From: Acidimicrobiales bacterium
Lineage (GTDB): Bacteria > Actinomycetota > Acidimicrobiia > Acidimicrobiales > Aldehydirespiratoraceae
Direction: 5' to 3'
Assembly: GCA_029263215.1 (NCBI GenBank)
Contig: JAJCXY010000040.1
Span: 14,359 to 78,358 of the forward strand
Length of the DNA: 64,000 nt
The position numbers and the translations under genes are program-made. Below are positions 30,474-43,381 of this stretch, piece by piece (the first letter of the stretch is position 1; each line of letters opens with the position of its first letter). Under the pieces are notes generated by a model. That model made no database searches, was not told the DNA's origin, and was given only the letters and a program-made list of their open reading frames with translations.

Positions 30474-30544
30474 GAGCACGACGGTACCGCCATCAGAGCC
30501 ACCCCCTCCGGCTTTTCTGAGCGCTTTCGCGCGCATAGCGCGCG

Positions 30545-31429
30545 CTAGCGCTCAGAGATCGGTTCGGGCTGGGGGTTTGGGGTCGGGCTTGGGTTGGGTT
30601 TGGGGTGGGCTCGGGTTCGGGCTTTGAAGTCGGCGTCGCGTTGACCGGACGCATACCGCGAGAACCGGATCGCGATCAGGCCCCAGAGATAGAAGCCGCC
30701 GACGATCTTCATCACCGCACCAGCGGCCTGCTGATCGTGCACCGGCGAGATCCCCCAGAGCGGATCAGTGGTGTCGTAGGACTGGTAGACCACACCCTCG
30801 GCGAAGGTGAGCCAGCCCGCCGGCACGGTGGGCACGATCGACATCAAGAAGAGGTAGAGCATCTTGCCCGGCTCGCTCATCTGCATCTCTTTGAGAGGAC
30901 CGAGCACCGGGAACCACATCAACAGAGCAGAGAAGAAGACGCCCAGGTGCAAGACATAGTGGAAGGCACCGTTCTCCACCGACAGGTCGACCACCACTCC
31001 CCAGTGGGTCAATACCTGGAAGGCGTTGAAGACCACGCCGGCCACGACCGGCTTGGCCAGGAACCTGAGGATCCGTTGGAAGGTACCGGCCTCGAGAACC
31101 AGCAGGCGGGCGAGCCAGGCCGGCAGCGCCATCAAGAGCAGAGGCGGCACGATGAAGCTGATCAGCAGGTGCTGCACCATGTGCACGGAGTAGAGGTTTT
31201 CTTCGGCGATGTCGTGCAGCGGCCAATCGGCCGCCAGCCACAACAGCAAAACCCCCGCGACGAAATAGCGCTTTTGGGCCGCGGTGACGATCGTCTGCCC
31301 GGCCGGCACGACCAAGGGGCCGATCGCCCGCACCGAATAGACACCGAGCGCCACGATGCCGGCCACCAGAAGCCAGACCTCAGGGTGGAACTCGTAATCC
31401 CAGGCATTGACCGCCAAGATCGCGGTCAT
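30545..31429 (-). CDS. ctaG: Cytochrome c oxidase assembly factor CtaG (Caa3_CtaG family)
   Basis: Polytopic protein with HMVQHLLISFIVPPLLLMALP, typical of Bacillus-type CtaG. Directly follows ctaF. Confidence 0.75.
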   Translation of the reverse strand: MTAILAVNAWDYEFHPEVWLLVAGIVALGVYSVRAIGPLVVPAGQTIVTAAQKRYFVAGVLLLWLAADWPLHDIAEENLYSVHMVQHLLISFIVPPLLLMALPAWLARLLVLEAGTFQRILRFLAKPVVAGVVFNAFQVLTHWGVVVDLSVENGAFHYVLHLGVFFSALLMWFPVLGPLKEMQMSEPGKMLYLFLMSIVPTVPAGWLTFAEGVVYQSYDTTDPLWGISPVHDQQAAGAVMKIVGGFYLWGLIAIRFSRYASGQRDADFKARTRAHPKPNPSPTPNPQPEPISER

Positions 31430-31435
31430 CTCACA

Positions 31436-31759
31436 TCAGGCCCAGAACTGGAAAGCGAGGAGAGCGACGATATAGACGGCGATCGCCATCCCCAGCCCAG
31501 TAGCGAAGAGGCCCGAGAGGATCGGCTTGTCCTGCTTGAGGTGCATGAACATCCGAGCCACCAGCCAGAACTTCACCACCATCATCACCAGCAGGGAGGG
31601 GATCAGGGCGTCGCCCCAATCGAGGACCGACTCGAAGTAGGTGAAGACCTCGACCGAAGTGATGACGCCAAGAACCAAAGCGATCTTCACATATTGCAGA
31701 TCGGACGGGTGATGGTCGTCTTCGGTTTCGGAGCCGGTCTCGGCGATGGTGTCGCTCAT
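31436..31759 (-). CDS. ctaF: Cytochrome c oxidase subunit IV (prokaryotic COX4_pro type)
   Basis: 107 aa with three TM segments. YVKIALVLGVITSVEVF...VKFWLVARMFMHL pattern. Sits after ctaE. Confidence 0.7.
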   Translation of the reverse strand: MSDTIAETGSETEDDHHPSDLQYVKIALVLGVITSVEVFTYFESVLDWGDALIPSLLVMMVVKFWLVARMFMHLKQDKPILSGLFATGLGMAIAVYIVALLAFQFWA

Positions 31760-31769: not shown

Positions 31770-32384
31770 CTACTCGGCGGGAATCAGATAGATGACCGTG
31801 AAGATGAAGATCCACACGATGTCGACGAAGTGCCAGTAGAGACCGATGATCTCCACGGTCTCCGCATTCTCGGCCTTCAGCTTCCCCTGCACTGAAGCCA
31901 CAACCAGCGACATCAGCATCAGGATCCCGAGGCTCACGTGCACGCCGTGGAAGCCGGTGAGGGTGTAGAAGGCCGAGCTGGCGGGGTTGGTGGTGAAGCC
32001 CATCCCCTCGCGAACGAAGGTGGTGAACTCATACACCTGGCCACCGACGAACACGCCGCCGAGCATGGCGGTTGTGAGCAGCCACGCTCGAGAACGCTCC
32101 ACCTCACCACGGTTGAGAGCCGAGAGGGCGAGCACCATGGTGAGCGAGCTCATGAGCAGCACAAAAGAGCTGACCGAGGTAAACGGGATGTCGAAGATGT
32201 CGGTGGGGAGAACGTCGCCGTTGCCCCGCGTCTTGTAGAGCAGGTAGGTGGAGATCAGGCCACCGAACAGGAGGCACTCGGTGCCGAGGAAAAGCCACAT
32301 CGCCAACTTGTTGTTGGAGATACCGGTGTTGGTCTGGTGGGCGTCGTGGTGGGTGTCGACCGCAACGGTGGAAGTGGTGGTCAT
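31770..32384 (-). CDS. ctaE: Cytochrome c oxidase subunit III
   Basis: ATG 32384 lies 1 nt after the ctaD stop. LFLGTECLLFGGL, FYTLTGFHGVHV and LYWHFVDIVW motifs. Confidence 0.9.
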   Translation of the reverse strand: MTTTSTVAVDTHHDAHQTNTGISNNKLAMWLFLGTECLLFGGLISTYLLYKTRGNGDVLPTDIFDIPFTSVSSFVLLMSSLTMVLALSALNRGEVERSRAWLLTTAMLGGVFVGGQVYEFTTFVREGMGFTTNPASSAFYTLTGFHGVHVSLGILMLMSLVVASVQGKLKAENAETVEIIGLYWHFVDIVWIFIFTVIYLIPAE

Positions 32385-32385: not shown

Positions 32386-34395
32386 TCAGCTCCCCTCGCC
32401 CTCGTCGGTGGCTCCGGCGCCGACCATAGCCGGGTCGTCACCGCCATCGTCATCGTGGTGATCGTCGTGGCCGTGACCCGCGTCGGGATCGTCGACCGGC
32501 TCGAGTACCCAGGCGTAGATGCTGCCCGCAACGAGTATGCCGCCGATCACACATAGCCAGAGATTGAAGATCACGCCATATCCGATCAGGGGCATGCCAA
32601 CCGCTATCACCAGCGGCCAGAACGACGGTGAGGGCAGGTGGACATCGTCGGCGTCGCCCTTCTGGGCGGCTTCCTCGACCGTGGCGATGCGCACGACCTT
32701 GTGGTTGTCGTCGTAGCCGTACTTGCGATACCACCACTCGTCCTGGCTCTCGACGGTGGGAATCACATCGAAGTTGTGCTCGGGAGTGGGCGACGGGACC
32801 ATCCACTCCAGGCTCCGCGCGTCCCACGGATCGGGGCCGGGGGCCGGAAGGTGCTTGGCTTCACGCTTCGATACCCAGGCGTTGTAGAGGAAGTAGCAGA
32901 CACCGAGCCCGATCGTGTAGGCGCCGATGGTGGCCACGAGATTCCAGAGATCGAATCCGAAACCGGCCGAATAGGTGTCGATCCGCCGACTCATTCCCTG
33001 AAGGCCGAGCACATGCATTGGACCGAAGGTGAGGTTCATGCCGATGATCATCAGCCAGAAGTGGATCTTTCCCCGGCGCTCGTTGAGCATGTGGCCGAAG
33101 ATCTTGGGCCACCAGAAGTAGGCGCCGCCCATGAGACCGAGCACACCGCCGCCGAAGATCACATAGTGGAAGTGAGCAACGATGTAGTAGGTGTCGGTCT
33201 GCTGGGTATCGGCCGGCGCCAAGGCGTGGGTGACACCGGAGAGGCCACCGATGGTGAACATCGCCACGGTGCCCACCGAAAACAGCATCGCGGTGGTGAA
33301 CTTGATTTTGCCGCCCCACATGGTGGCGAGCCAGTTGAGAATCTTCACGCCGGTGGGAACCGCGATGAACATGGTGGACAGGGAGAAGGCCGCCACCGAG
33401 ATAGGGCCGATGCCCGAAACGAACATGTGGTGAGCCCAAACCCCCCAGCCCATGAAGCCGATGGCGATCCCGGAGAACACCATGAACGAGTAGCCGAAGA
33501 TCGGCTTACGGCTGAACGTGGGAATGATCTCGGAGATGATGCCGAAACTGGGCAGGATGATTATGTAGACCTCGGGATGACCGAATATCCAGAAGAGGTG
33601 CTGCCAAAGCAAGGGATCGGCACCCGCATCAGGATCGAAGAACTGGGAGTCGAACACCCGGTCGAAGAGCAGCAGGAACAGGGCCACCACGATGACCGGC
33701 AGGGCGAAAGCCAGCAAGAACTGGGTGACCAGCAGCATCCAGGTGAGAACCGGCATCCGGAACAAGCTCATGCCCGGGGCCCGCATGTTGAGCACGGTGA
33801 CGATCAAGTTGAGCGACGACACGATCGACGCGGTGCCGATGATCAGCAGGCCGACGGCGTAAAAGTCGACCCCGTGGGTGGGCGAGAAGGTGACGCCGCT
33901 GTTGGGTGAATAGCAGAACCAGCCACAGTCGGCGCCGCCGCCGCCGAGGAGCCACGACGAGTTGATGAACACCGCGCCCGAGAGCCAGACCCAGAACGAC
34001 AAGGCGTTGAGGCGAGGGAAGGCGACGTCGCGGGCCCCGATCTGGAGCGGGATGAGGTAGTTGGCGAAGGCGGCGGCCAACGGCATGACAAAGAGGAACA
34101 CCATGGTGAGGCCGTGCATGGTGTAGATCTCGTTGTAGATCTGTGCCGACAGGAAACCCTGCTCGGGGAACGCCAACTGGGTGCGGATCAACAGGGCCTC
34201 GGCGCCGCCGACGAGGAAGAAGAACATCGCCGCCACGCCGTACATGATGCCGATGCGCTTGTGGTCGACCGAGCTCAGCCAGTCGCGCCAGCCATTGCCA
34301 CCCTGGGGTCGGGTGAGAGATCCCAGGGGTCGTTCAGCAAGCTGCGCTTCACTGGTTTCGATAGCCAGGGGTTGTTCGATGATGGCCATGATCAC
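32386..34395 (-). CDS. ctaD: Cytochrome c oxidase subunit I, A1-type, all ligands present, with two extra C-terminal TMs and a His/Asp-rich tail
   Basis: DHKRIG, TMHG, GHPEVY, WAHHMF, AHFHYV and DPWDARSLEW are all present. The tail reads DDPDAGHGHDDHHDDDGGDD. Confidence 0.95.
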   Translation of the reverse strand: MIMAIIEQPLAIETSEAQLAERPLGSLTRPQGGNGWRDWLSSVDHKRIGIMYGVAAMFFFLVGGAEALLIRTQLAFPEQGFLSAQIYNEIYTMHGLTMVFLFVMPLAAAFANYLIPLQIGARDVAFPRLNALSFWVWLSGAVFINSSWLLGGGGADCGWFCYSPNSGVTFSPTHGVDFYAVGLLIIGTASIVSSLNLIVTVLNMRAPGMSLFRMPVLTWMLLVTQFLLAFALPVIVVALFLLLFDRVFDSQFFDPDAGADPLLWQHLFWIFGHPEVYIIILPSFGIISEIIPTFSRKPIFGYSFMVFSGIAIGFMGWGVWAHHMFVSGIGPISVAAFSLSTMFIAVPTGVKILNWLATMWGGKIKFTTAMLFSVGTVAMFTIGGLSGVTHALAPADTQQTDTYYIVAHFHYVIFGGGVLGLMGGAYFWWPKIFGHMLNERRGKIHFWLMIIGMNLTFGPMHVLGLQGMSRRIDTYSAGFGFDLWNLVATIGAYTIGLGVCYFLYNAWVSKREAKHLPAPGPDPWDARSLEWMVPSPTPEHNFDVIPTVESQDEWWYRKYGYDDNHKVVRIATVEEAAQKGDADDVHLPSPSFWPLVIAVGMPLIGYGVIFNLWLCVIGGILVAGSIYAWVLEPVDDPDAGHGHDDHHDDDGGDDPAMVGAGATDEGEGS

Positions 34396-35636
34396 TCCAC
34401 CTCCGTCGCCGCGATGATCTCAGCCGATGGCTTAGGGCCGAGAGTCTCGAGGTAGGAGATCAGGTCGCTTATTGTTCGTTCGGATAGCCCGAGGTTGGGC
34501 ATACCGCGAGGGGCGACACCGTCGCCGAGACCGTCGGCCACATTGTCCTTGACCGCGGCGGGATCTCGGATCCAGGCAGCAAGGTCGTCGCGGTTGAGGC
34601 TGCCATCTTCGTTGTAGGTGTTGAGGATGCCCCCGGCGAAGGTGGTGCGGCTGGCGAAGTGGGTGAGGTCGGGCGCCGAGCCCGACTGGGTGGTGGCCCC
34701 GGTGTAGGTGTCGTCGTTGACGCCGTCGATGAGGTGACATGAGGCGCAGTTGGCGACGAACGCCTCCATGCCCCGCACTGCGGCCTCGTCGGTGGGCGTC
34801 GCCGCAGGGGTCATCTGGGTGTCGATCCATTCCTGGAAATCGTCGTCGGTCATGGCGACGACCTGCATGCGCATTCGGGAGTGCGATACGCCGCAGAACT
34901 CCGTGCACTGACCGAAGAAGACACCGGGCTCGTCGGCCGCCAGCTTCCACGGGGAGAAGAACCCCGGGCGTGCGTCGCGCTTGCCGTTGAGAGCAGGGAT
35001 CCAATAGGAGTGGATGACGTCGCGCGAGGTGACGAGGAGCTCGATCTCTTGTCCCGCGGGGATGGCCATCTGGCCCGAGGTGACGATGTCGGCGGGCGGA
35101 AGATTCTTCGGGTCGCCGAGCATCTCGGGGGTTACGTCGTCGTCGAAGTAGTAGCGGTACTCCCACCACCACTGCTGGCCGACCACGACCACCTTGGGTT
35201 CCCATGACGTGGCGGAGCCGTCGACCTCGACCTCGATCGCGTTGGCTTCGGTTTCGTTGAGGGCGATGTGAGCGATGACGGTGAGCACCGCCACCGCGGC
35301 CATGATCGCCGCAGGAACGACCGTCCACAGGATCTCGAGAGCATTGTTGCCATGAGTCTGGGCGGGGAAATCGTCGTCGTCGTAGTCGGACACCCGGTTG
35401 CGCCAGCCCATCCAGAGGATGACGCCGACAACCAGGACCAGCACCACTCCGGCCACGATCATCACGAAGTCGAGGAGGTCGTCGATGTCTCGCGCTGATT
35501 CACCCCGGGGTTGCAGGGTGTCGAGTTCGGCGTCGCTGGCACACCCTGCGAGCAAGAGGCTCAACAGGATCAACAAGCCCGGCCAGGCGCGGCGTCGAGT
35601 AGGTGTCATGGATTCACTCACCGTTGTCGTTCTCAT
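34392..35636 (-). CDS. ctaC: Cytochrome c oxidase subunit II with a fused C-terminal cytochrome c domain (caa3 type); lipoprotein signal
   Basis: Lipobox LLAGC. CuA site H-x34-CTEFCGVSHSRM. C-terminal CASCH heme-c motif. ATGA overlap with the upstream gene. Confidence 0.9.
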   Translation of the reverse strand: MRTTTVSESMTPTRRRAWPGLLILLSLLLAGCASDAELDTLQPRGESARDIDDLLDFVMIVAGVVLVLVVGVILWMGWRNRVSDYDDDDFPAQTHGNNALEILWTVVPAAIMAAVAVLTVIAHIALNETEANAIEVEVDGSATSWEPKVVVVGQQWWWEYRYYFDDDVTPEMLGDPKNLPPADIVTSGQMAIPAGQEIELLVTSRDVIHSYWIPALNGKRDARPGFFSPWKLAADEPGVFFGQCTEFCGVSHSRMRMQVVAMTDDDFQEWIDTQMTPAATPTDEAAVRGMEAFVANCASCHLIDGVNDDTYTGATTQSGSAPDLTHFASRTTFAGGILNTYNEDGSLNRDDLAAWIRDPAAVKDNVADGLGDGVAPRGMPNLGLSERTISDLISYLETLGPKPSAEIIAATEVE

Positions 35637-36421
35637 TCGTCTGCGTGGGTGTCGTCGGCCGCACCGTCTTCATGCACCTCGTGGCGCTCGAACTCTCGCT
35701 CCCCGTCGACCGCGGCAACGATGCCACCGGCGATCACGGCGACGCCGGCCACCAGCATCAGGCCGGCGATGAGATTCTTGCTCAGCTTGGGCTTGGCGGC
35801 GTAGAGGGTGCCGATACCGAGGATCACAACGGCGAGGAGACCGGCGAAGATCACCGCACCGTTCGCTGAGGCATTGAGAAGGATGCGTGAGCTGGCGAGC
35901 ACCATCACCCCGGCGGCTATGGCACCGGCGGCAGGAATCTCGATCGGGGCCATGACACGATCTCGCAAGGCCTTGTTGGCCACCGGGTCGCCGGTGGCAC
36001 GATCGGCCCAGGCGTCGATCGTCCACTCGATCGCGGCTATTGCACAAAGCACAAGCCCGACGACGAACACCGCGCTGTGCACCACCAGGCCAACTGCCAT
36101 CGTGGCGGCACCGAACGCCGCTACGACAGGCCAATGGCTGGCTGCCGCAGGGGTGGTGGGAGCGATGGAGTCGACGCCCGCATAGTGAGCCTGAGCGGCC
36201 GGATCGGCGTCGCGGTACATCACCAGAGCAATGGCGATCAGGCCCGCCACCACGCCTAGGCCCATGAGGGTCACGTAGCCGACGTGGTCGCCGATGCCGC
36301 CCTTCCAACCCCAAACCAGGGGGCCGACATGGTCGCCACCGGTGGAGTAGCCGTAGACGACCGCGGCGGTGACGAGGCCCATCGCGAGCCCGAAGAAGAA
36401 TTTGAAGCCAGGAGTGAACAT
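35633..36421 (-). CDS. Polytopic membrane protein of the oxidase operon, unknown function
   Basis: 262 aa with about 7-8 TM segments and an acidic/His C-terminus (HEVHEDGAADDTHADE). Its stop overlaps the ctaC start. Confidence 0.5.
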   Translation of the reverse strand: MFTPGFKFFFGLAMGLVTAAVVYGYSTGGDHVGPLVWGWKGGIGDHVGYVTLMGLGVVAGLIAIALVMYRDADPAAQAHYAGVDSIAPTTPAAASHWPVVAAFGAATMAVGLVVHSAVFVVGLVLCAIAAIEWTIDAWADRATGDPVANKALRDRVMAPIEIPAAGAIAAGVMVLASSRILLNASANGAVIFAGLLAVVILGIGTLYAAKPKLSKNLIAGLMLVAGVAVIAGGIVAAVDGEREFERHEVHEDGAADDTHADE

Positions 36422-36428
36422 CTGATCC

Positions 36429-37016
36429 CTACTTCGTGATGTAGATCACGTACCAGGTGATCGACCACATGGCGACCACGGTGTTCCAGAACATGGCCGC
36501 AGCCGCGATGCCATCTGACTGACGCGGGCCGTACGAACCGAACAGGGCTCGCAGCATCGTGAGGGCAAGGAAGACCACTGCGAGAATCAAGAAGACGATG
36601 AAGGTGCCGTTGACGACGAAGAAGAAGAATTCGGCTTCACCGTCGGCCAGGGCATAGCCGATGTCGTTGATGATGAACCAGAGCTGGTTGAACACTGCGG
36701 CACCGAACAAGGCGGTGATGGCCATGGCCCACATCGCATTGGTGCGATCGCCGTTCTTGATCGCTTGCACCGCCCACTGAACGGTGAAGACCGAAAGCAC
36801 CAGCGTCCAGAAGATGAATCCGGGCGGACCCAGCTCGACGGTGCCCTCCGGGAACCAGCCCTGACCGGAGAAGGATGCCTCCGCCCGCCGGTGGGCGTAG
36901 ATGCCCAGCAGGCCGAAGTAGACCATCATCGCCGCGCCCGATGCGAACATCGCACCGACCAGGACGGTGCGGGGGCGACGAGTTACCGGAGCGGGCAGGG
37001 CGGTGGTGACGACCAT
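36429..37016 (-). CDS. Divergent cytochrome oxidase subunit III-like protein
   Basis: 195 aa with 5 TM segments. MFWNTVVAMWSITWYVIYI aligns with ctaE LYWHFVDIVWIFIFTVIYL, with His replaced by Asn. The start shares 1 nt with the upstream stop. Confidence 0.6.
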   Translation of the reverse strand: MVVTTALPAPVTRRPRTVLVGAMFASGAAMMVYFGLLGIYAHRRAEASFSGQGWFPEGTVELGPPGFIFWTLVLSVFTVQWAVQAIKNGDRTNAMWAMAITALFGAAVFNQLWFIINDIGYALADGEAEFFFFVVNGTFIVFLILAVVFLALTMLRALFGSYGPRQSDGIAAAAMFWNTVVAMWSITWYVIYITK

Positions 37017-38656
37017 CAGGCGTCCTCCCCATCGGTGTCGGGTTCGCTCGAATCGAGAAGGGGTGACTCAGACACCACGCGAGCGGGCGGCTCGACGAAA
37101 TTGGCGACAGGGGGTGGAGACGAGATGCTCCACTCCAGTGAGTGCCCGTCCCATGGGTCGGCTCCTGCCTCCGGATTGGTCGACCGGAAGGAGACGAGGA
37201 ATCCGCCCAGCGCATAGACCATGCCGCCGGCGATCATGAACCCACCCGCGGCCGACGCGATGAGCAAGGGGTCGACTACGTCGCTTCCGGTCTCGAACAG
37301 CAGGAGGTCGGGGGCAGCGTAGAAACCGGCCACCACATCGGCGGCACCGAGAAGGGTTGCGCCGGTGAGCAGGGTGAGGAGAGCTATCCGCCCGTCTTCG
37401 GCAGCGACGAGCCCACCGCTGATCTTCGGCGACCAGAACCACACGCCGGTAAGCGCGGCCGCCACCGCAGAGAACACCACCAGGTTGAAGATGCCGGTGA
37501 TGGCAGACGTGCCGGCGAGGTCGAAGGGAGCGATGACCCTCAGGGCGCCGCTCGCGACTGCGCCGAACAGCAGGACTGCGGCGGCCAATGCTCCGTGGAG
37601 GTGGGCCGGAGGCCTGTCGGTGGGCTTCTCGCCCCTGAACAGGGTGAGCAATGAGCCGCCGAGCACGCCGAGCACCGGCACCACGGCCAGGAGCCCGAAC
37701 CCAACGAAGACGACATCTTCGGTGGAGTCGAAGAAGAAGGGCTGCGACCAGCCGCCGATGGCCGCGAACCCGAAGACCCCCACCATCACGACCATCAGGG
37801 CGTGATCGGCCTGGCGGGTCTTCGCATAGGCGGGGACCACAGAGCCGATGACTCCGAGCACGGGGATGGCGAATGCGTAGATCTGGGGCTGCTCGACAAG
37901 CCAGGCGATCTGGGCGTAGATCGCTCCGGATGCCTCCGGGTCGCCGAACGTGAGAGGGCCGCCGCGCAGATCGACGTAAATCAGGATCAGGTTGGCGATG
38001 GCCACCGGAAGGGTGAGGAGCCAAACCGCCGATGCCACGAGCATCGACCAGGCGAACAGGGGAACCCTCATCAAGTTCATTCCCGGGGTCCGCAGCGACA
38101 CAACCGTGGTGGCGATGCAGATCGCGGCGATCAGCAGGGCACCTATCACCATGCCGGTGCCCACGAGGGTGAGGGCGATTGCGTCGGCTTCATCGCCGGT
38201 GACGCCGTCGAGGGCACCCCAGCCTCCACCGACCAGCACAGAGACGATCGTGATGCCGGCGCCGAGCAAGAAGCTCCACACCGCAACCAGGGCAGCACGC
38301 GGGAAGGCGATGTTGGTGGAACCGACCTGCATCGGCACCACGAGAGTGGCCAGACCGATGAAGAGAGGCATTACCACCAACAGGACCATGCCCAGCCGGT
38401 AGAGAGTCCACATCTGGAAGTAGGAATTTTGCCCGCCGAAGAAGCCCGACGTGGCGGGTTCGGCTCGTTCCAAGCCAACGAAGGTGCCGAGGACCGTGAA
38501 GGCCACCAGCAGCACCATCGAAACGAGGATCCAGATTCGACCTATCCGCTTGTGGTCAGTCGTGGAGATCCAGTCGTAGAGGCCATGCGCGGCGCTGGGC
38601 GCAGCGGGTGGGTTGTCGGCCACGGCAGAGGCCGGCTGAGACTCGGTCATCGTCAT
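37016..38656 (-). CDS. Heme-copper oxidase subunit I-like protein lacking all canonical heme/CuB His ligands
   Basis: ATG 38656 with a GGAGGA Shine-Dalgarno. Retains DHKRIG, VMPL, AFPR, RTPGMNLMRVPLFAW, WFWSPK and DPWDGHSLEW. At ligand positions it has TLYRL, EQPQIY, WSQPFF and GIFNLV. Confidence 0.7.
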   Translation of the reverse strand: MTMTESQPASAVADNPPAAPSAAHGLYDWISTTDHKRIGRIWILVSMVLLVAFTVLGTFVGLERAEPATSGFFGGQNSYFQMWTLYRLGMVLLVVMPLFIGLATLVVPMQVGSTNIAFPRAALVAVWSFLLGAGITIVSVLVGGGWGALDGVTGDEADAIALTLVGTGMVIGALLIAAICIATTVVSLRTPGMNLMRVPLFAWSMLVASAVWLLTLPVAIANLILIYVDLRGGPLTFGDPEASGAIYAQIAWLVEQPQIYAFAIPVLGVIGSVVPAYAKTRQADHALMVVMVGVFGFAAIGGWSQPFFFDSTEDVVFVGFGLLAVVPVLGVLGGSLLTLFRGEKPTDRPPAHLHGALAAAVLLFGAVASGALRVIAPFDLAGTSAITGIFNLVVFSAVAAALTGVWFWSPKISGGLVAAEDGRIALLTLLTGATLLGAADVVAGFYAAPDLLLFETGSDVVDPLLIASAAGGFMIAGGMVYALGGFLVSFRSTNPEAGADPWDGHSLEWSISSPPPVANFVEPPARVVSESPLLDSSEPDTDGEDA

Positions 38657-38680
38657 CGTTTGTAGGGTCCTCCGACAATG

Positions 38681-38709
38681 ACCGGAGCGCGCGCTCCGGT
38701 CACCGGTGA
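38681..38709. promoter_or_regulatory. Perfect 20-nt palindrome plus an abutting 10-nt palindrome in the leader of the oxidase-like operon
   Basis: ACCGGAGCGCGCGCTCCGGT (38681-38700) is self-complementary. TCACCGGTGA (38700-38709) is also palindromic. Both lie 25-53 nt upstream of ATG 38656. Confidence 0.4.
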
Positions 38710-38842
38710 AATGCGTTCGTGGTGCACCCGGAGAGCACGGGCGCATAGCCGGGGGCGAGCCTACAGTGCGACGGGGTCCCCCATGGAAACCGGGCACCAT
38801 GTTTTGCGCCGGAGCACGCCTGCAGGCGACCGGCGGCTCGGG

Positions 38843-39739
38843 TCAGACGCCGCTACGAACGATCTCGTCGACGGCCATCGCTGCAAAAAGCAGGGTGATG
38901 TAGGTGATCGACCATCCGAACAAGCGCATGGCCAAGTCGGGTTCGGGCCGCCTCAACACCTGCACCGCCAGTCCGGTGAAGATGCCGCCGAGGATCAACG
39001 CCGCGCTCGTGTAGACCCAGCCCATTCCCGCCACCGGCGTGAAGAGCAGGGAGAGGCCCCACATCGCCAGGCTGTAGAGCAGGATCCTCATCGCGGTGGT
39101 GCGCATGCTGGCCACGACGGGCAACATCGGTACTTCGGCCACTTCGTAGTCTTCGCGGTAGCGGATGGCGAGGGCCCAGAAGTGGGGAGGTGTCCAGTAG
39201 AACATCACCGCGAACAGCACCACGGGGGGCCAGGCCAGCTCGTTGGTGACCGCAGACCAACCCACGAGTACGGGCACGGCTCCGGCCGCTCCGCCGATCA
39301 CGATGTTGCGGGTGGAGGTGCGCTTCAACCAGAGCGTGTAGACGAACACATAGAACAAGGTGGCGCACACCGCGAGCACCGCCGACAAGAGGTTGACGAA
39401 CCCCCACAGCCAAGCGAACGCCGCCACCTCGATGGCCCAGGCGAACACGATGGCTTCACGGGGGCTGACCTCACCGGTTACCAGCGGTCGGCCTTTCGTG
39501 CGCTCCATCAGGGCGTCGATGTCGCGATCGACGTGCATGTTGAAAGCGTTGGCGCCGCCGGCGGCGAGGGTGCCTCCGATGACGGTGGCGATCATCAACC
39601 AGACTGAAGGAATGCCACCCTCGGCCACCACCATGGTGGGGACGGTGGTGACCAACAAGAGCTCGATGATGCGCGGCTTTGTGAGTGCCACGAACGCCAT
39701 TGGGCGCGATCGGGAACTCTTGGTGGATTGGGCTCTCAC
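38843..39739 (-). CDS. ctaB: Protoheme IX farnesyltransferase (heme O synthase)
   Basis: LTKPRIIELLL, GGAANAFNMHVDRDID and YWTPPHFWALA UbiA-family motifs. Confidence 0.9.
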   Translation of the reverse strand: MRAQSTKSSRSRPMAFVALTKPRIIELLLVTTVPTMVVAEGGIPSVWLMIATVIGGTLAAGGANAFNMHVDRDIDALMERTKGRPLVTGEVSPREAIVFAWAIEVAAFAWLWGFVNLLSAVLAVCATLFYVFVYTLWLKRTSTRNIVIGGAAGAVPVLVGWSAVTNELAWPPVVLFAVMFYWTPPHFWALAIRYREDYEVAEVPMLPVVASMRTTAMRILLYSLAMWGLSLLFTPVAGMGWVYTSAALILGGIFTGLAVQVLRRPEPDLAMRLFGWSITYITLLFAAMAVDEIVRSGV

Positions 39740-39795: not shown

Positions 39796-40722
39796 ATGAC
39801 TCGTAGCTCCCTGTCCCCCGAGCGCTACATCACCTACACGCGCGCCGCCCTCTGGTCGCTGGCGATCATCGTGGTGAGCGGTGGTGCGGTTCGCCTCACC
39901 GGTTCCGGTCTCGGCTGCTCGGATTGGCCCAACTGTCAAGAAGACCAACTGGTCGCTGATCTCGAATACCACGCCCTGATCGAGTTCGTGAATCGCCTGT
40001 TCACCGGCCTCGTCACCGCCGCAGTGGTGATGGCGGTGCTCGGATCGCGTCGACGAATCCCTCATCGCCGCGATCTCACCTGGTGGTCGTGGGGCCTGGT
40101 GGCCGGTGTCGCCGCCCAGGTGGTGCTCGGAGGCCTACTCGTCAAGGCCGATCTCGATCCCCGCTTCACGATGGGCCATTTCCTGCTCAGCATGGTTCTC
40201 GTCTGGAACGCTGTGGTCCTGCAGCACAAGGCCGAGGAGTTCGACCACACCCAGCCCGCCGGGAGCGAGCCCGGAGATCACGACCGTTACGCACTGCAAT
40301 TTTGGGGAAGAGCTGTGCTGGCACTCGGCACCGTACTGTTGGTGACCGGAACGATCGTCACCGGAGCGGGTCCCCACAGCGGCAGCGACGAACCGGACGT
40401 AGCCGCCCGCCTTCCCTTCAACATCCGAGAAGTCACCCGGATCCACAGCATCGTCGCCATCTGCCTCCTTGTCCTGGTGGTGTACGTGATCCGACGAGCC
40501 ACCGACGCCAACCGCGCCGACGTGCGCGACCGGGCCCTGGTGGTTGCCGCCCTGCTCCTCATCCAGGGGGCCATCGGCTACCTCCAGTACTTCACCGGCG
40601 TACCGGTGTTGTTGGTGGCCGTACACCTCACCTTCGCCACCCTTGCCTGGATGGCGATCGTGCGACTCGATTTGGTGGCACGCGAAGCGGTGCCAGTACG
40701 CGCACCCACCCCCGTGGCGTGA
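39796..40722 (+). CDS. ctaA: Heme A synthase (COX15/CtaA)
   Basis: [19 protein letters not shown] and HALIEFVNR, with paired His-containing helices. Divergent from ctaB. Confidence 0.85.
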
Positions 40723-41006
40723 CCGCCCCTCTTGTCACACCCGAAGTCGACACAGGCGAGCAGGTGTCGTTCGATCGCCCGTGGAAGGTGATCTGCTGGG
40801 ACGACCCGGTCAACCTGATGTCGTACGTCACTTTCGTTTTCCGCAAGGTGTTCGGGTTCTCGAAAGAGAAGGCGCATCGCCTGATGATGCAGGTCCACAC
40901 CGAAGGCCGAGCGGTCGTCTCGTCGGGGAATCGCGAGAAGGCCGAACTCGACGTCTTCCGCCTTCACGAACACGGCCTCTGGGCCACCCTCGAAAGGGAC
41001 GACTGA
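40719..41006 (+). CDS. clpS: ATP-dependent Clp protease adaptor ClpS
   Basis: GTG 40719 overlaps the ctaA stop (GTGA). [46 protein letters not shown]. Confidence 0.85.
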
Positions 41007-41485
41007 TGCTCAGGCGGCGGTTCAAATGGAAGAGCGGTCGGGTCGTGGTGGAGATCCCGCCCGACGAACAGGAAATGCTGCGTCACGTCCTGCCCCAGCT
41101 GCGCGAGATGTTGATGGCCGACGACGACCCCGCCTTACGACGACTGGCCCCGCCCGCTCGCCCCGACGACGAAGAGGCTGAACACGAATATCGCGACATG
41201 GTGGGCGACGACCTGTTGCGCACCCGGCTCGAGGCGATCGAACTTGTCGAGAACGGGATCGAAGGCGCATCTCTCGATGAGGATCAGGTCGGAGCTTGGA
41301 TGCAGAGCCTCAACGCCTTGAGGCTGATACTGGGCGAACGTCTCGACATAGACATGATCGGCAACGAGGCCCTCACCGACCTCGATCCCGACGACGACCG
41401 GGCACCGGTTCTCGCCCTCTTCGAATGGATCGGATGGCTGCTGGAGCAATTGGTCGAAGCCGCGATGAACGAATTCGACGACTGA
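41006..41485 (+). CDS. DUF2017 domain protein (the usual clpS partner in actinobacteria)
   Basis: ATG 41006 shares 1 nt with the clpS stop. Acidic helical protein; assignment rests on its position after clpS. Confidence 0.6.
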   Translation: MLRRRFKWKSGRVVVEIPPDEQEMLRHVLPQLREMLMADDDPALRRLAPPARPDDEEAEHEYRDMVGDDLLRTRLEAIELVENGIEGASLDEDQVGAWMQSLNALRLILGERLDIDMIGNEALTDLDPDDDRAPVLALFEWIGWLLEQLVEAAMNEFDD

Positions 41486-41494: not shown

Positions 41495-42331
41495 TCAAGT
41501 CGCTACGGGCCACCAGAAGCCGCCGGCGGTACCCGGTCCGGTGTGGGCCGCTATCGACGGGCCCACCCGATAGCGCACCATTTCGACCACCAGATCCGAC
41601 GCGCTCAGGCGCTCCTCGATCCCCTCGGTGAAAGGCAGGGTGGCCGGATCGGCAAGACAGACACCGGCACGAACCGGCACACCATCGGAAAGAAACGGCG
41701 CCACCATCAGATCGCACAGCTCGTCAACGGAGCGACCCGTACCCGTGATGTCGATCGCGGTGCCGAGGCCACCGAGAACCAGCACGCCCTCAGCATCGTC
41801 GGGAAGATGGAAATCGAAGCGGCCACCCTGGCGAGCGAAATCGAGTGCCTGGATGATGAACGAGGTTCCGACGTAGGGGGCCATCTTCGCGGCGCGTTCG
41901 GCGGCCTCGATTGCCGATCCCCCTTCCGCCACGGCGGCGGCCGCCTCCCACACACATGACGAAACGCCGAAAGAAGCGGTTCCGCTGTCGACGATGTGAA
42001 CATCGGCGGCCACGAGATCGGCTGCGATGCTGGCACTGTGGATCGTGCCCGACACATCGGCGGCCACGTGGACCGAGATGATCTCGGTGGCACCGGCGAC
42101 GATCGCGTCGTCGTAGACGGCTCGGAAATCACCGGGACTCGGTTGTGAGGTGGTGACGTCGGGTGAGTTCCCGTCGGCGAAGCGGCGCCAGAAGTCGTCG
42201 GCGAAGAGATCCACGCCCTCGCGGAAGTCGTCGCCGTCGATGGTGACCGTTACCGGCACCACTCGCACCCCGAACCGGTCGACGAGGGATGGCGGGATCT
42301 GGGAAGCCGAGTCGGTTACGAGGGCGATCAT
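41495..42331 (-). CDS. DegV-family fatty-acid-binding protein
   Basis: ATG 42331 inside ORF 41495..42802. MIALVTDSASQIP...TTSQPSPGDF...IHSASIAA pattern. Confidence 0.85.
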   Translation of the reverse strand: MIALVTDSASQIPPSLVDRFGVRVVPVTVTIDGDDFREGVDLFADDFWRRFADGNSPDVTTSQPSPGDFRAVYDDAIVAGATEIISVHVAADVSGTIHSASIAADLVAADVHIVDSGTASFGVSSCVWEAAAAVAEGGSAIEAAERAAKMAPYVGTSFIIQALDFARQGGRFDFHLPDDAEGVLVLGGLGTAIDITGTGRSVDELCDLMVAPFLSDGVPVRAGVCLADPATLPFTEGIEERLSASDLVVEMVRYRVGPSIAAHTGPGTAGGFWWPVAT

Positions 42332-42969
42332 GGTTGGGAGGTCTCCTTCGTGGCGGTGTTGTAGGCGTCGACCCTGTGCCGTTCGGCGCGGAATCGTTCG
42401 GCGATCACGAGGGAGGAGGCAGCTGCCGCAAGCGGAAGGCCGACGGTGGGGGCTGTTCCTCCCGGGTTCGGCAACCCTCGTCGCCACCACAGAATTCCGC
42501 ACCCGACCCAGGACACACTGGCAACCGTGGTTGCAGTACGGGTGCGCTGCTTGAACCACGGGATGGCGGATGTGGCCACCCCAACCAGGAGATCGATGGG
42601 GAGATAGCCGGGGAAGGTGGCTATGACCTGGCCGATACTCGTGGCGACGCCCTTCCCGCCGGTGCGCCCCGGCGGGTGGCAGTGGCCAACCACCGCGGCC
42701 ACGCCGGCGAGATGGGCACCTGCGTCGCCGGCGACACCACGACCGACCCGAGCCGCGAGCACTCCCTTGCCGACATCGGCAGAGGCCACCGTGAGACCCC
42801 ACTTCTTCCCCAGCACGTGGCTGGCGTTCATCCCGCCCGGATTGCCGGTGCCGTCGGAGTGCAGGTCGCTACCCTCGCCCGCGAGTCGGGCTGCTAGATC
42901 GGCCGAGGGGAAAGAGCCGATCACATAGCCGGCCACCGCAGCCAGCAACACTCTTCGCCGCGAACGCAT
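42328..42969 (-). CDS. plsY: Glycerol-3-phosphate acyltransferase PlsY
   Basis: ATG 42969. GSFPSADL...SDGTGNPGGMNA...GKGVAT motifs. The ORF-track extension to 43257 runs through tRNA genes. Confidence 0.85.
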   Translation of the reverse strand: MRSRRRVLLAAVAGYVIGSFPSADLAARLAGEGSDLHSDGTGNPGGMNASHVLGKKWGLTVASADVGKGVLAARVGRGVAGDAGAHLAGVAAVVGHCHPPGRTGGKGVATSIGQVIATFPGYLPIDLLVGVATSAIPWFKQRTRTATTVASVSWVGCGILWWRRGLPNPGGTAPTVGLPLAAAASSLVIAERFRAERHRVDAYNTATKETSQP

Positions 42970-43032
42970 CCCCGCGACGCTAGTGCCACAGAGGCCGTAA
43001 ACTGTCCGCTCGGTCGGATCGTCGGCCGCGCT

Positions 43033-43108
43033 GCCCCCTTCGTCCAGTGGCCTAGGACGCCGGCCTTTCACGCCGGTAACACGGGTTCGAATCCCGTAGG
43101 GGGTGCCA
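43033..43108 (+). tRNA. tRNA-Glu (anticodon UUC), CCA encoded
   Basis: Hand-folded cloverleaf. Acceptor GCCCCCT/AGGGGGT, anticodon arm CCGGC-CTTTCAC-GCCGG, T arm ACGGG-TTCGAAT-CCCGT. Confidence 0.9.
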
Positions 43109-43178
43109 ACGGACAAGGGTTGTGAACCTGGTTTCACCGCCCTACCGTTCCAGGTTCGTTCGGGTTTCTCGAACGAGT

Positions 43179-43374: not shown

Positions 43375-43381
43375 CTCTCAC

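What the first reader, a model, noticed from the sequence alone, without database searches (positions are those of the whole stretch)
35633..38656. Cofactor-less 'shadow' oxidase module (dead subunit I + subunit III-like + unknown membrane protein) fused transcriptionally to an intact caa3 oxidase operon
**Ligand losses in the subunit I paralogue.** The 546-aa protein at 37016-38656 aligns almost without gaps to the bona fide CtaD encoded 2.6 kb downstream. It shares DHKRIG, VMPL, AFPR, R(A/T)PGM.L.R.P...W, W.(W/S)PK and DPWD..SLEW. Every catalytic position is nevertheless replaced:
- heme a His: TMHGL becomes TLYRL
- CuB His and the D-channel Glu: GHPEVY becomes EQPQIY (the Tyr is kept)
- CuB His pair: WAHHMF becomes WSQPFF
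- heme a3/heme a His pair: AHFHYV becomes a GIFNLV region with no His
- D-channel entry Asp: GARDVAFPR becomes GSTNIAFPR
- K-channel Lys: VPTGVKIL becomes VVPVLGVLG

**The partner genes.** The next gene (36429-37016) is a subunit III homologue. Its conserved His are also replaced: LYWHFVDIVW becomes MFWNTVVAMW, and GFHGVHV becomes NGTFIVF. The third gene (35633-36421) is a 262-aa polytopic protein. Its segment SHWPVVAAFGAATMAVGLVV...IAAIEWTIDAW loosely resembles the extra C-terminal helix pair of CtaD (PSFWPLVIAVGMPLIGYGVIF...AGSIYAWVLE).

**Operon context.** All three ORFs are intact. They are linked by 1-nt, 7-nt-gap and 4-nt junctions, and the last stop overlaps the ctaC start. They are therefore probably co-translated with ctaC-D-E-F-G. 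No subunit II partner exists for the dead set.

**Interpretation.** This looks like a maintained, non-redox paralogue set, perhaps a scaffold, assembly platform, supercomplex component or ion-conducting module. It does not look like a decaying pseudogene. I do not recognise it as a described system.
Basis: partly seen in the sequence, partly recalled or inferred. Interest (0 to 1): 0.82.

Follow-up and report, generated by a model that had tools for sequence, protein, structure and literature searches.

The report
Ligand-less oxidase paralogue trio in Acidimicrobiia
Three intact genes placed directly upstream of a working cytochrome c oxidase operon encode copies of oxidase subunits I, III and IV that have lost every heme and copper ligand, yet all three are kept under purifying selection across the class Acidimicrobiia, so they are most likely non-redox structural partners of the oxidase and not decaying duplicates.

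Summary
**Observation: confirmed.**
- Window 35633-38656 (minus strand) holds three intact genes.
- dI (546 aa) passes Pfam COX1 and has a predicted 12-helix subunit I fold, but keeps 0 of the 6 His ligands.
- dIII (195 aa) is a 5-helix subunit III homologue.
- X262 (262 aa, 7 helices) looks like actinobacterial subunit IV (CtaF) in its N-terminal half.

**New evidence from related genomes.**
- Every locus that carries dI shows the same order: ctaA<- ->ctaB-dI-dIII-X262-ctaC-D-E-F-G. This covers 148 distinct dI sequences, all Acidimicrobiia apart from a few contigs labelled otherwise.
- Similar ctaCDEFG operons in loci labelled as other lineages lack the trio.
- No complete copy has a real in-frame stop. 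dN/dS is 0.03-0.2, the same range as the live oxidase genes.
- No dI keeps more than one of the four binuclear-centre His.
- The earliest-branching dI keep both low-spin heme His. The window's clade has lost those as well.
- Conservation in dI lies in TM2/3/5 and the cytoplasmic loops, not in the former catalytic core. The outer-face loops are degenerate or deleted.

**Function: inferred only.** I read the trio as a permanent non-redox module of the caa3 oxidase complex. An assembly role remains open.

**Prior description.** Nine literature searches found none. Databases name dI as an active oxidase subunit.

The parts
37016..38656 (-). dI: 546-aa paralogue of heme-copper oxidase subunit I with none of the six His ligands (H->Y, Q, Q, P, I, N). 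The D-channel Asp is Asn, Glu286 is Gln and the K-channel Lys is lost.
   Evidence: Pfam COX1 137 bits. NCBIfam CtaD equivalog 204 bits against a cut-off of 671. Alignment to the live CtaD. Ligand columns in 121, 77 and 148 family members. AlphaFold2 model with pLDDT 77, pTM 0.83 and 12 TM helices. Foldseek TM-score 0.75-0.80 to subunit I chains.
36429..37016 (-). dIII: 195-aa, 5-helix paralogue of oxidase subunit III. Its start overlaps the dI stop by 1 nt.
   Evidence: Pfam COX3 29.9 bits. Only NCBIfam hit is aa3_CtaE_Actin at 34.8 bits, below the cut-off of 190. hhalign to the live CtaE family 99.2%, E 2e-19. Junction sequence.
35633..36421 (-). X262: 262-aa protein with 7 predicted TM helices. 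The N-terminal four helices resemble actinobacterial subunit IV (CtaF). Helices 3-4 are homologous to the C-terminal helix pair of the live CtaD. It has an invariant motif AWADRATGDxxANxxLRxRxMxPxExP after helix 4 and an acidic, His-containing C-terminal tail. Its stop overlaps the ctaC start (ATGA).
   Evidence: PF12270 at E 0.0044, below the gathering score; 8 of 34 members match it. PDB profile hit 9wcx_m 'oxidase polypeptide 4' at E 0.042. hhalign to the CtaD tail 95.4%. Foldseek top two hits are the 139- and 143-residue chains 8hcr_H and 7q21_F of actinobacterial bcc-aa3 supercomplexes, which I take to be CtaF, but at E 0.3-1 on a low-confidence model. Family alignment. Junction sequence.
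38657..38842 (-). 186-nt spacer between ctaB and dI, with GGAGG 12 nt before the dI ATG. This is the only sizeable gap in the cluster and a possible internal promoter region.
   Evidence: Sequence read. No sigma-70 consensus match was found.
34392..35636 (-). ctaC: live subunit II with a fused cytochrome c domain (caa3 type) and a lipoprotein signal ending LLAGC.
   Evidence: Pfam COX2_TM + COX2 + Cytochrom_C; TIGR02866 at 175 bits, above its cut-off. Translation.
32386..34395 (-). ctaD: live subunit I (669 aa) with all six His ligands and a C-terminal extra helix pair (PF12270-like, also aligned to the C-terminal helix pair of B. subtilis QoxB), followed by a His/Asp-rich tail.
   Evidence: COX1 520 bits; TIGR02891 at 685 bits, above its cut-off. 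Ligand pattern HHHHHH in all 21 live CtaD examined. Alignment to QoxB.
31770..32384 (-). ctaE: live subunit III (5-helix type).
   Evidence: COX3 65 bits; CyoC/QoxC/aa3_CtaE_Actin models 129-150 bits.
31436..31759 (-). ctaF: live small subunit IV of the COX4_pro type.
   Evidence: PF03626 35 bits.
30545..31429 (-). ctaG: caa3-type oxidase assembly factor.
   Evidence: PF09678 139 bits.
38843..39739 (-). ctaB: heme O synthase (UbiA family). First gene of the cluster, upstream of dI.
   Evidence: PF01040 214 bits. Position conserved in related loci.
39796..40722 (+). ctaA: heme A synthase, divergently transcribed.
   Evidence: PF02628 89 bits. Position conserved in related loci.

Best explanation
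**What it is (well supported).** The trio is specific to Acidimicrobiia. It consists of paralogues of the three membrane-core subunits of an A-family heme-copper oxidase: I, III and a CtaF-like IV. It sits between ctaB and ctaC of a caa3 oxidase operon. The subunit I copy lost the heme a3-CuB centre at or near the origin of the family. In the window's lineage it later lost the low-spin heme site too. The window's dI is therefore a 12-helix protein with no recognisable redox cofactor ligand. All three genes are kept intact by purifying selection.

**How it most likely works (inferred).** The three proteins are made together with CtaC/D/E/F from one transcript. They assemble into a non-catalytic 'pseudo-oxidase' body of about 24 helices. 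That body is a permanent structural component of the caa3 oxidase complex, for example a partner that pairs with the active monomer or links it to its electron donor. It carries no electrons and conducts no protons. Selection appears to act on the subunit III-facing helices (TM2/3/5) and on the cytoplasmic-face loops of dI, and on the invariant loop motif of X262 that is predicted to be cytoplasmic. This points to the cytoplasmic face and the intra-membrane contacts as the working surfaces. The outer face, where subunit II's CuA domain would dock, no longer seems to matter.
For: **Shown.**
- *Homology and fold:*.
- *Ligand loss:* the window's dI has 0 of 6 ligands. The substitutions are themselves conserved among the 121 closest members: CuB His1 -> Q in 121/121, His2 -> Q in 121/121, His3 -> P in 120/121.
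- *Binuclear centre:* across 148 distinct dI, 139 have none and 9 have one of the four binuclear-centre His. All 21 live CtaD have all six ligands.
- *Gene order:* invariant in every dI-bearing locus.
- *Lineage restriction:* loci carrying similar ctaCDEFG operons but labelled Gemmatimonadota, Euzebyaceae or Acidobacteriota, plus several labelled only Actinomycetota, lack the trio.
- *Intactness:* 121 complete dI, 115 dIII and 109 X262, with no genuine in-frame stop.
- *Selection:* dN/dS is 0.03-0.17 for the trio in well-diverged pairs, against 0.02-0.13 for ctaC/D/E.
- *Constraint profile is inverted:* dI is best conserved in TM2/3/5 (1.4-1.6 bits of entropy) and least in TM8-12 (1.9-2.2). 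The live CtaD is best conserved in TM6-8 (0.32).
- *Where the conserved residues lie:* mostly Gly/Pro/Trp and the loops II-III and IV-V, plus the C-terminal DPWxGxxLEW motif.
- *Outer face:* the loop holding the W172 equivalent is deleted by 8 residues, and the R481/R482 equivalents are not kept.
- *Coupling:* overlapping stop and start codons.

**Weak support.** Evolutionary-rate covariation for dIII-CtaD (0.45), X262-CtaD (0.44) and dIII-CtaC (0.42) is as high as for the known partners CtaC-CtaD (0.41).
Against: - There is no direct evidence of transcription, translation, complex formation or cofactor content.
- The rate-covariation measure is unreliable. The known partners CtaD-CtaE scored -0.01, and dI itself covaries more with CtaB (0.36) than with CtaD (0.11).
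- ctaB and ctaG, which act in biogenesis and are not subunits, sit in the same operon. Operon membership therefore does not separate a subunit from an assembly factor.
- No multimer prediction could be run.
- Bacterial A-type oxidases that have been purified are not known, to my knowledge, to need such a partner.
- The X262 model has low confidence (pLDDT 67).
Confidence: 0.5

Rival explanations
1. The trio is a biogenesis platform. It acts as a transient membrane scaffold or chaperone that mimics apo-subunit I/III. It would hold heme A (from CtaA/CtaB, encoded just upstream), copper or nascent CtaD/CtaC during assembly, and is absent from the mature enzyme.
For: - The trio lies between the heme O/A synthase genes and the structural genes, and the operon also carries the assembly factor ctaG.
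- dI covaries in rate with CtaB (0.36) and CtaA (0.23) more than with CtaD (0.11).
- Early-branching dI keep a bis-His heme site.
- X262 carries an acidic, His-containing tail, predicted by the positive-inside rule to face outward.
Against: - No His, Met, Cys or Tyr inside the membrane is conserved across the dI family to bind heme or copper reversibly. The conserved polar residues are Q, R, T, S and D.
- The heme site was lost repeatedly without loss of the gene.
- A three-protein body of about 24 helices is large for a chaperone.
- The covariation method failed one of its positive controls.
Confidence: 0.22
2. The trio has an independent membrane function that re-uses the oxidase scaffold, such as ion or proton conduction, lipid or quinone binding, or sensing. 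It would be unrelated to the oxidase except through co-expression.
For: - The trio is conserved and under purifying selection.
- X262 has a strictly invariant loop motif of unknown role.
Against: - The polar lining of the D channel is replaced: N121 -> T/L/M, D132 -> N/T/S/A/G, N139 -> A, S201 -> L, E286 -> Q/A. The K-channel Lys is lost.
- No new conserved charged residue appears inside the membrane apart from the Gln pair that replaces two CuB His.
- Absolute synteny with ctaC-G across the class argues for a function tied to the oxidase.
Confidence: 0.1
3. The window's dI is still a redox protein that binds heme or metal through non-His ligands, for example the Tyr that replaces the helix II His.
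For: - Tyr at the helix II ligand position is conserved in the window's clade (109 of 121).
- Some relatives keep the bis-His site.
Against: - The partner position on helix X is Asn or Ile.
- The Arg pair that holds the heme propionates is gone.
- Across the family the helix II position varies freely (Y, F, S, G, A, Q, H, L, M).
Confidence: 0.05
4. The trio is a set of decaying or neutral duplicates (pseudogenes) that happen to be still open in this genome.
For: - The trio evolves faster than the live subunits. Mean pairwise distance is 1.14 for dI against 0.37 for CtaD.
Against: - All complete copies are intact.
- dN/dS is about 0.1.
- The order is conserved across a whole class whose dI members are down to about 30% identical to each other.
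- Replacement residues and motifs are themselves conserved.
Confidence: 0.02

Closest known systems
A-family heme-copper oxidase membrane core of Actinobacteria: aa3 CtaD + CtaE + CtaF (PDB 6HWH, 6ADQ, 7Q21, 8HCR)
   Same: - dI's best solved-structure matches by sequence and by fold are mycobacterial and corynebacterial CtaD (170 bits; TM-score about 0.8).
- dIII's only NCBIfam hit is the actinobacterial CtaE model.
- X262's only recurring weak hits are actinobacterial subunit IV, and its top two Foldseek hits are chains of these supercomplexes that I take to be CtaF.
- Both show the split architecture of a 12-helix subunit I with a separate helix-pair-bearing subunit IV. In C. glutamicum CtaE + CtaF together replace the canonical 7-helix subunit III (10.1101/2021.06.16.448340).
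   Different: - dI has no heme a, heme a3 or CuB ligands and no D- or K-channel residues.
- There is no partner subunit II.
- X262 has three extra helices and its own invariant motif.
- All scores fall far below the equivalog cut-offs.
- dI is no closer to mycobacterial CtaD (170 bits) than to its own operon's CtaD (175 bits), so descent from the aa3 type is not established.
Bacillus subtilis-type cluster, ctaA divergent from ctaB-ctaCDEF-ctaG (caa3 oxidase)
   Same: The live genes here have the same content and order: ctaA<- ->ctaB ... ctaC (with a cytochrome c domain), ctaD, ctaE, ctaF (COX4_pro), ctaG (Caa3_CtaG). The Bacillus gene order is from my own knowledge.
   Different: Three extra genes are inserted exactly between ctaB and ctaC. 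The live CtaD carries an extra C-terminal helix pair.
CydB of cytochrome bd oxidases: a heme-less structural paralogue of the heme-bearing CydA within one terminal oxidase (from my own knowledge, not tested here)
   Same: The concept matches. A duplicated oxidase subunit lost its redox cofactors and persists as an obligatory structural partner encoded next to the active copy.
   Different: - The protein superfamily is unrelated.
- CydB is a proven subunit, whereas association of the trio with the enzyme is only inferred.
- Here a whole three-subunit set was duplicated and silenced, not a single subunit.
Divergent heme-copper superfamily members with altered active sites (NOR families such as cNOR/qNOR and the newer eNOR/sNOR/gNOR types; from my own knowledge)
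   Same: These are members of the same superfamily with changed metal ligands and lost proton channels.
   Different: All of them keep the two hemes and a metal at the binuclear site and remain catalytic. dI keeps none of these in the window, and at most the low-spin heme site in some relatives.

Membership tests
Heme-copper oxidase subunit I (PF00115; A-family CtaD) | Sequence match to the family profile above the curated threshold | tested here: met
   Pfam COX1 137.4 bits against a cut-off of 34.8, covering the whole profile.
Heme-copper oxidase subunit I (PF00115; A-family CtaD) | Twelve-helix subunit I fold | tested here: met
   AlphaFold2 pTM 0.83 with 12 TM helices. Foldseek E about 1e-18 and TM-score 0.75-0.80 to subunit I chains.
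Heme-copper oxidase subunit I (PF00115; A-family CtaD) | Six invariant His: two for the low-spin heme, one for the high-spin heme, three for CuB | tested here: not met
   The window has 0 of 6. No family member has more than one of the four binuclear-centre His; 17 of 148 keep the two low-spin His.
Heme-copper oxidase subunit I (PF00115; A-family CtaD) | D-channel (Asp, Asn, Glu) and K-channel (Lys) residues of A-type enzymes | tested here: not met
   D -> N, N139 -> A, E -> Q and K -> V in the window; these positions vary across the family.
Heme-copper oxidase subunit I (PF00115; A-family CtaD) | NCBIfam equivalog score for CtaD/CoxA, or the actinobacterial aa3 subunit I model | tested here: not met
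   TIGR02891 203.7 bits against 670.75. NF050116 200.6 bits against 880.
Oxidase subunit III (PF00510) | Profile match above threshold and homology to the live CtaE | tested here: met
   COX3 29.9 bits against 23.8. hhalign 99.2%, E 2e-19 over 165 columns. It falls below the NCBIfam aa3_CtaE_Actin cut-off (34.8 against 190).
Actinobacterial oxidase subunit IV / CtaF (PF12270) | Profile match above the gathering score | tested here: not met
   17.5 bits against 26.9 for the window protein. Only 8 of 34 members match at E < 0.1.
Actinobacterial oxidase subunit IV / CtaF (PF12270) | Four-helix fold like CtaF and homology of the helix 3-4 pair | tested here: inconclusive
   PDB profile hit 9wcx_m at E 0.042. 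hhalign to the PF12270-positive tail of the live CtaD gives 95.4%. The top two Foldseek hits (8hcr_H, 7q21_F; 139 and 143 residues), which I take to be CtaF chains, come at E 0.3-1.0 on a model with pLDDT 67.
Pseudogene or decaying duplicate | Frameshifts or stops in homologues, or neutral evolution (dN/dS near 1) | tested here: not met
   No genuine in-frame stop in 121 dI, 115 dIII or 109 X262 complete copies. dN/dS is 0.03-0.2 in well-diverged pairs.
Stoichiometric subunit of the caa3 oxidase complex | Co-purification with CtaC/D/E/F | not testable with these tools
   Only indirect support is available: translational coupling, absolute synteny and weak rate covariation.

The most novel reading that the evidence does not exclude
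The trio is a cofactor-free 'pseudo-monomer' of a heme-copper oxidase that pairs permanently with the active caa3 monomer, or bridges it to the bc complex. That would make the Acidimicrobiia oxidase an obligate complex of a live and a dead copy of the same enzyme core. The family also preserves the stepwise route to that state: first loss of the heme a3-CuB centre with the low-spin heme kept (early-branching members), then repeated loss of the last heme (the window's clade). As far as I know, this would be the first pseudoenzyme module described in the heme-copper oxidase superfamily.
Probability: 0.3. Interest if true: 0.85.

Novelty: new variant of a known kind. Interest (0 to 1): 0.72.

Why it matters
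1. **Annotation.** Databases name dI as an active oxidase subunit. Names seen here include 'cbb3-type cytochrome c oxidase subunit I', 'cytochrome o ubiquinol oxidase subunit 1' and 'cytochrome c oxidase subunit I+III'. Metabolic reconstructions of Acidimicrobiia genomes, most of those seen here being metagenome-assembled, may therefore count an oxidase that cannot reduce oxygen.
2. **Bioenergetics.** A whole bacterial class keeps a silenced copy of the oxidase membrane core next to the live one. This implies a structural or organisational need that the well-studied model oxidases do not reveal.
3. **Evolution.** The family offers a natural series from a heme-bearing, binuclear-centre-less form to a fully ligand-less form. 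It is useful for asking how a cofactor-packed 12-helix bundle stays folded without its cofactors.
4. **Testability.** Cultured members exist, for example Actinospongicola halichondriae and Aquihabitans sp..

Tried and rejected
- **Origin of the trio (unresolved).** The question was whether it arose by tandem duplication of the live ctaD-E-F or is a relic of the actinobacterial aa3 oxidase. dI scores about equally against its own operon's CtaD (175 bits) and M. smegmatis CtaD (170 bits). Its ranking of solved structures parallels that of the live CtaD. A four-taxon parsimony count on family consensus gave 2 / 5 / 4 informative sites for the three topologies, which is no signal. A weak hint favours the actinobacterial type from the subunit III and IV hits only.
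- **Promoters and terminators.** No sigma-70-like site was found, and terminator-like hits were no more frequent than in shuffles and none lay at a gene junction. This is uninformative for a high-GC actinobacterium.
- **Cavity filling.** Mean side-chain volume per helix is smaller in dI than in CtaD, not larger. The result is confounded by the Ala/Gly/Val enrichment of fast-evolving proteins in a 65% GC genome, so I drew no conclusion about the heme pockets.
- **Rate covariation.** It gave suggestive values but failed a positive control (CtaD-CtaE -0.01). I treat it as weak.
- **Internal duplication in X262.** None was found (score 40 against a shuffle mean of 35).
- **X262 versus the live CtaF (COX4_pro), CtaE and dIII.** No relationship was found (hhalign probability below 1%).
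- **X262 structure.** The accepted run gave a low-confidence model.
- **Apparent exceptions.** An apparent in-frame stop in L020 dI was an artefact of my ORF extension. L124, labelled Limnocylindrales, is a genuine CtaC-CtaD and not a dI.
- **Literature.** Nine searches found no description. One search was a malformed query.

Full report
**1. What is in the window**

The minus strand between about 30.5 and 39.7 kb carries one tight gene cluster:

| Gene | Coordinates | Identity |
|---|---|---|
| ctaB | 38843-39739 | UbiA family |
| dI | 37016-38656 | subunit I paralogue |
| dIII | 36429-37016 | subunit III paralogue |
| X262 | 35633-36421 | 7-helix protein |
| ctaC | 34392-35636 | COX2 with a fused cytochrome c domain |
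| ctaD | 32386-34395 | live subunit I |
| ctaE | 31770-32384 | live subunit III |
| ctaF | 31436-31759 | COX4_pro |
| ctaG | 30545-31429 | Caa3_CtaG |
| serS | 29184-30536 | named from its translation and my reading; no family search was run |

ctaA (39796-40722) is divergent on the plus strand.

A TGATG overlap joins dI and dIII. Seven nucleotides separate dIII and X262. An ATGA overlap joins X262 and ctaC. The only real spacer is 186 nt between ctaB and dI, with a GGAGG before the dI ATG. Third-position GC of the three ORFs (0.79-0.85) matches neighbouring genes.

**2. The three proteins**

*dI.* It matches Pfam COX1 end to end at 137 bits (live CtaD: 520). It falls far below every NCBIfam equivalog cut-off. 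It aligns to the live CtaD at 30% identity with few gaps, and all six His ligands are replaced. An AlphaFold2 model (pLDDT 77, pTM 0.83) has twelve transmembrane helices. Foldseek places it on subunit I chains at TM-score 0.75-0.80, with mycobacterial and corynebacterial CtaD at the top.

*dIII.* It passes Pfam COX3 (29.9 bits). It is homologous to the live CtaE family by profile-profile comparison (99.2%).

*X262.* It has seven predicted helices. No Pfam family passes its threshold. Its helix 3-4 pair is homologous to the extra C-terminal helix pair of the live CtaD (hhalign 95.4%, E 1.9e-8). That CtaD tail is itself PF12270-positive and aligns to the C-terminal helix pair of B. subtilis QoxB. 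Three weak and independent pointers name actinobacterial subunit IV (CtaF):
- PF12270 in 8 of 34 members.
- PDB chain 9wcx_m at E 0.042.
- The top two Foldseek hits, 8hcr_H and 7q21_F, are 139- and 143-residue chains of actinobacterial bcc-aa3 supercomplexes that I take to be CtaF. They come at E 0.3-1.0.

In C. glutamicum and M. smegmatis, CtaE plus CtaF together take the place of the canonical seven-helix subunit III (10.1101/2021.06.16.448340). The trio is therefore a complete membrane core (I + III + IV-like) that lacks only subunit II.

**3. It is a family, and it is confined to one class**

A protein search returned 373 relatives of dI. The best 120 are full length at 49-91% identity. 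They carry names such as 'cbb3-type cytochrome c oxidase subunit I' or 'hypothetical protein' and come from Acidimicrobiia metagenome-assembled genomes. X262 has 331 relatives, all unnamed, and 966 representative clusters among 1.84 billion proteins.

In all 145 dI-bearing loci fetched in those two scans, the genes present form a contiguous piece of ctaA<- ->ctaB-dI-dIII-X262-ctaC-D-E-F-G, often followed by serS. The loci include cultured strains (Actinospongicola halichondriae, Aquihabitans sp.) and contigs labelled Iamia, Microthrix, Rhabdothermincola, Ilumatobacteraceae and Ferrithrix.

A third scan seeded with divergent CtaC sequences brought in similar ctaCDEFG operons. These were labelled Gemmatimonadota, Euzebyaceae or Acidobacteriota, and several were labelled only Actinomycetota. 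None has the trio within 8 kb upstream. The trio therefore appears to be an Acidimicrobiia-specific insertion into an operon type that is more widely shared. A few dI loci are labelled Gammaproteobacteria, Terriglobia, Bifidobacterium or Jiangellaceae. They carry the full Acidimicrobiia-type cluster and are probably mis-binned.

**4. It is under selection**

Of 124 distinct loci, 121 dI, 115 dIII and 109 X262 copies are complete. None has a genuine in-frame stop. Nei-Gojobori dN/dS in twelve pairs of loci is 0.03-0.17 for the trio wherever dS exceeds about 0.3. This is the same range as ctaC, ctaD and ctaE, and dI is typically 1.5-2 times higher than ctaD. The trio evolves about three times faster in protein distance than CtaD and CtaE, and only somewhat faster than CtaA, CtaC, CtaF and CtaG. 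The pseudogene reading is refuted.

**5. What was lost, what was kept, and in what order**

Among the 121 closest dI sequences the replacements are themselves fixed:
- CuB His1 -> Gln in 121/121, His2 -> Gln in 121/121, His3 -> Pro in 120/121.
- D-channel Asp -> Asn in 116.
- Helix II heme His -> Tyr in 109.
- Glu286 -> Gln in 99 or Ala in 22.

Across 148 distinct dI from all three scans, 139 have none and 9 have one of the four binuclear-centre His. All 21 live CtaD examined have all six ligands.

Seventeen dI keep both low-spin heme His. In a neighbour-joining tree rooted on live CtaD the dI family is monophyletic. Its two earliest branches (L148/L149/L161, then L133/L073, separated by one small clade of three without those His) are of this type and are also the closest to live CtaD. 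The simplest reading has three steps. The ancestor lost the heme a3-CuB centre. It kept the low-spin heme for a time. That site then decayed several times, including in the window's clade (Tyr and Asn). Neighbour-joining tends to place slowly evolving sequences near the root, so this ordering needs a likelihood test.

The constraint profile is inverted relative to the enzyme:
- Live CtaD is most conserved in TM6-8 (entropy 0.32 bits).
- dI is most conserved in TM2, TM3 and TM5 (1.4-1.6) and least in TM8-12 (1.9-2.2).

Residues conserved at 85% or more in dI are mostly Gly, Pro and Trp, plus three shared elements: the II-III loop (PxQxG...AFPR), the IV-V loop (RxxGMxLxxxPxFxW) and the C-terminal DPWxGxxLEW. 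From the known topology of subunit I these are cytoplasmic-face elements.

The outer-face elements that hold the heme propionates and face subunit II are deleted or variable. These are the W172 loop, the Mg-site loop and the R481/R482 pair. This fits the absence of a subunit II partner. The D-channel lining (N121, D132, N139, S201, E286) and the K-channel Lys are replaced by non-protonatable or hydrophobic residues. A proton-conducting role is therefore unlikely.

In X262 the strongest conservation of the whole trio is the motif AWADRATGDxxANxxLRxRxMxPxExP, immediately after helix 4. The positive-inside rule predicts that it is cytoplasmic.

**6. Mechanism**

*Shown:* homology, fold, ligand loss, synteny, intactness, purifying selection and the location of constraint.

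*Inferred:* the three genes are translated together with ctaC-G; the proteins form a I-III-IV-like body; and this body is a permanent non-redox part of the caa3 complex.

The inference rests on four points:
- the tight coupling of the reading frames;
- absolute synteny across a class whose dI members are down to about 30% identical to each other;
- the general pattern that dead paralogues encoded beside their active relatives act as their structural partners, CydB beside CydA in bd oxidases being the nearest respiratory example (my own knowledge);
- weak rate covariation of dIII and X262 with CtaC/CtaD (0.37-0.45, against 0.41 for CtaC-CtaD). That method failed for CtaD-CtaE (-0.01).

The main rival is a transient assembly platform. 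It is favoured by the position next to ctaA/ctaB, by dI-CtaB covariation (0.36), and by the heme site in early-branching members. Against it, no conserved intramembrane ligand residue exists and the heme site was lost repeatedly without gene loss. I put the structural-partner model at about 0.5 and the assembly platform at about 0.2. The other readings are well below these.

**7. Comparison with what is known, and novelty**

The trio belongs to the heme-copper oxidase superfamily by sequence and fold. It fails the features that define a functional subunit I: ligands, channels and equivalog scores.

The live genes match the Bacillus-type ctaA / ctaBCDEFG arrangement, with the trio inserted between ctaB and ctaC. 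Known divergent superfamily members (the NOR families) all keep hemes and a binuclear metal site, and dI does not.

Nine full-text searches found no description of a ligand-less subunit I family or of this operon feature. The library does not cover most subscription journals, so a prior mention cannot be excluded.

I rate it a new variant of a known kind. It has practical weight for genome annotation and real interest for oxidase architecture and pseudoenzyme evolution.

**8. Limits**

- No expression, proteomic or biochemical data were available.
- No multimer prediction was possible.
- The X262 model has low confidence.
- The origin of the trio is unresolved.
- Trees are neighbour-joining only.
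- Taxonomic labels are those of the deposited records.

Noticed in passing
L148:4643-6346, L149:4423-6120, L161:4511-6238 (also L133, L073, and L054, L055, L061, L063, L066, L067, L074, L079): A minority of dI relatives (17 of 148) keep both low-spin heme His but have lost the heme a3-CuB ligands. Motifs include FTIHG, AAYPxLW and ATQHTLFF. In a neighbour-joining tree they include the earliest branches and are the closest to live CtaD, so they may be one-heme cytochromes and the ancestral state of the family.
   Followed up: partly
window 32386-32650 (C-terminal ~90 residues of live CtaD): The live CtaD has two extra C-terminal helices. They are PF12270-positive and align to the C-terminal helix pair of B. 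subtilis QoxB. A His/Asp-rich tail follows (DPDAGHGHDDHHDDDGGDD). The extension ending in a conserved Glu is conserved in the 57 live CtaD aligned.
   Followed up: partly
window 35633-35720 (C-terminus of X262) and homologues in alignment A4: After the last helix X262 has a conserved GERxFExH, then a variable acidic tail, often His-rich (for example HHHGEEHSEEHGEEHS in L036). The positive-inside rule predicts that it lies outside the cell. A metal-binding role is conceivable but untested.
   Followed up: no
L020-L031, L057 (contigs labelled Candidatus Aldehydirespirator): In this clade dI ends shortly after TM12 and lacks the otherwise conserved C-terminal DPWxGxxLEW motif. It also carries a His at the helix X position (pattern YQQDVH).
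   Followed up: partly
L001 (CAXMSE010000038.1); also L029, L040, L067, L117, L167, L194: These contigs carry the full Acidimicrobiia-type cluster. L001 is 85-95% identical to the window over 11 genes. They sit in bins labelled Gammaproteobacteria, Terriglobia, Acidobacteriota, Jiangellaceae or Bifidobacterium. Mis-binning or mislabelling is likely.
   Followed up: no
name column (for example P0027, P0030, P0082, P0085, P0021, P0101): Public annotation calls dI 'cbb3-type cytochrome c oxidase subunit I', 'cytochrome o ubiquinol oxidase subunit 1' or 'cytochrome c oxidase subunit I+III'. These names imply an active, or even high-affinity, oxidase that the sequence cannot support.
   Followed up: partly
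window 24394-26114 (+): A thioredoxin-like (AhpC/TSA, Redoxin) gene is followed by a DsbD_TM/CcdA-like gene. This pairing is typical of cytochrome c maturation (ResA/CcdA type). It lies about 4.5 kb beyond the ctaG end of the oxidase cluster.
   Followed up: no
window 34392-35636 (ctaC) and CtaC of related loci: CtaC begins with a lipoprotein-type signal ending in a Cys (LLAGC; the Cys is nearly invariant in alignment A7). The live subunit II is therefore probably lipid-anchored.
   Followed up: no
window 43033-43375 (+): A tRNA-Glu(ttc), tRNA-Asp(gtc), tRNA-Phe(gaa) cluster lies here. The long minus-strand ORF 42328-43257 overlaps two of these tRNA genes at its 5' end, so that part is probably spurious.
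   Followed up: partly
window 40770-41485 (+): A ClpS adaptor gene is followed by a DUF2017 gene, immediately downstream of ctaA.
   Followed up: no
window 49793-51982 (-): A 729-aa ORF with a coding-like GC3 has no Pfam match at E <= 0.001.
   Followed up: no
L207:6601-7134, L213:6632-7195, L222:6638-7174 (minus strand): In some Actinomycetota-labelled loci that lack the trio, a separate COX3-like gene (33-35% identical to the live CtaE) lies upstream of ctaC on the opposite strand.
   Followed up: no
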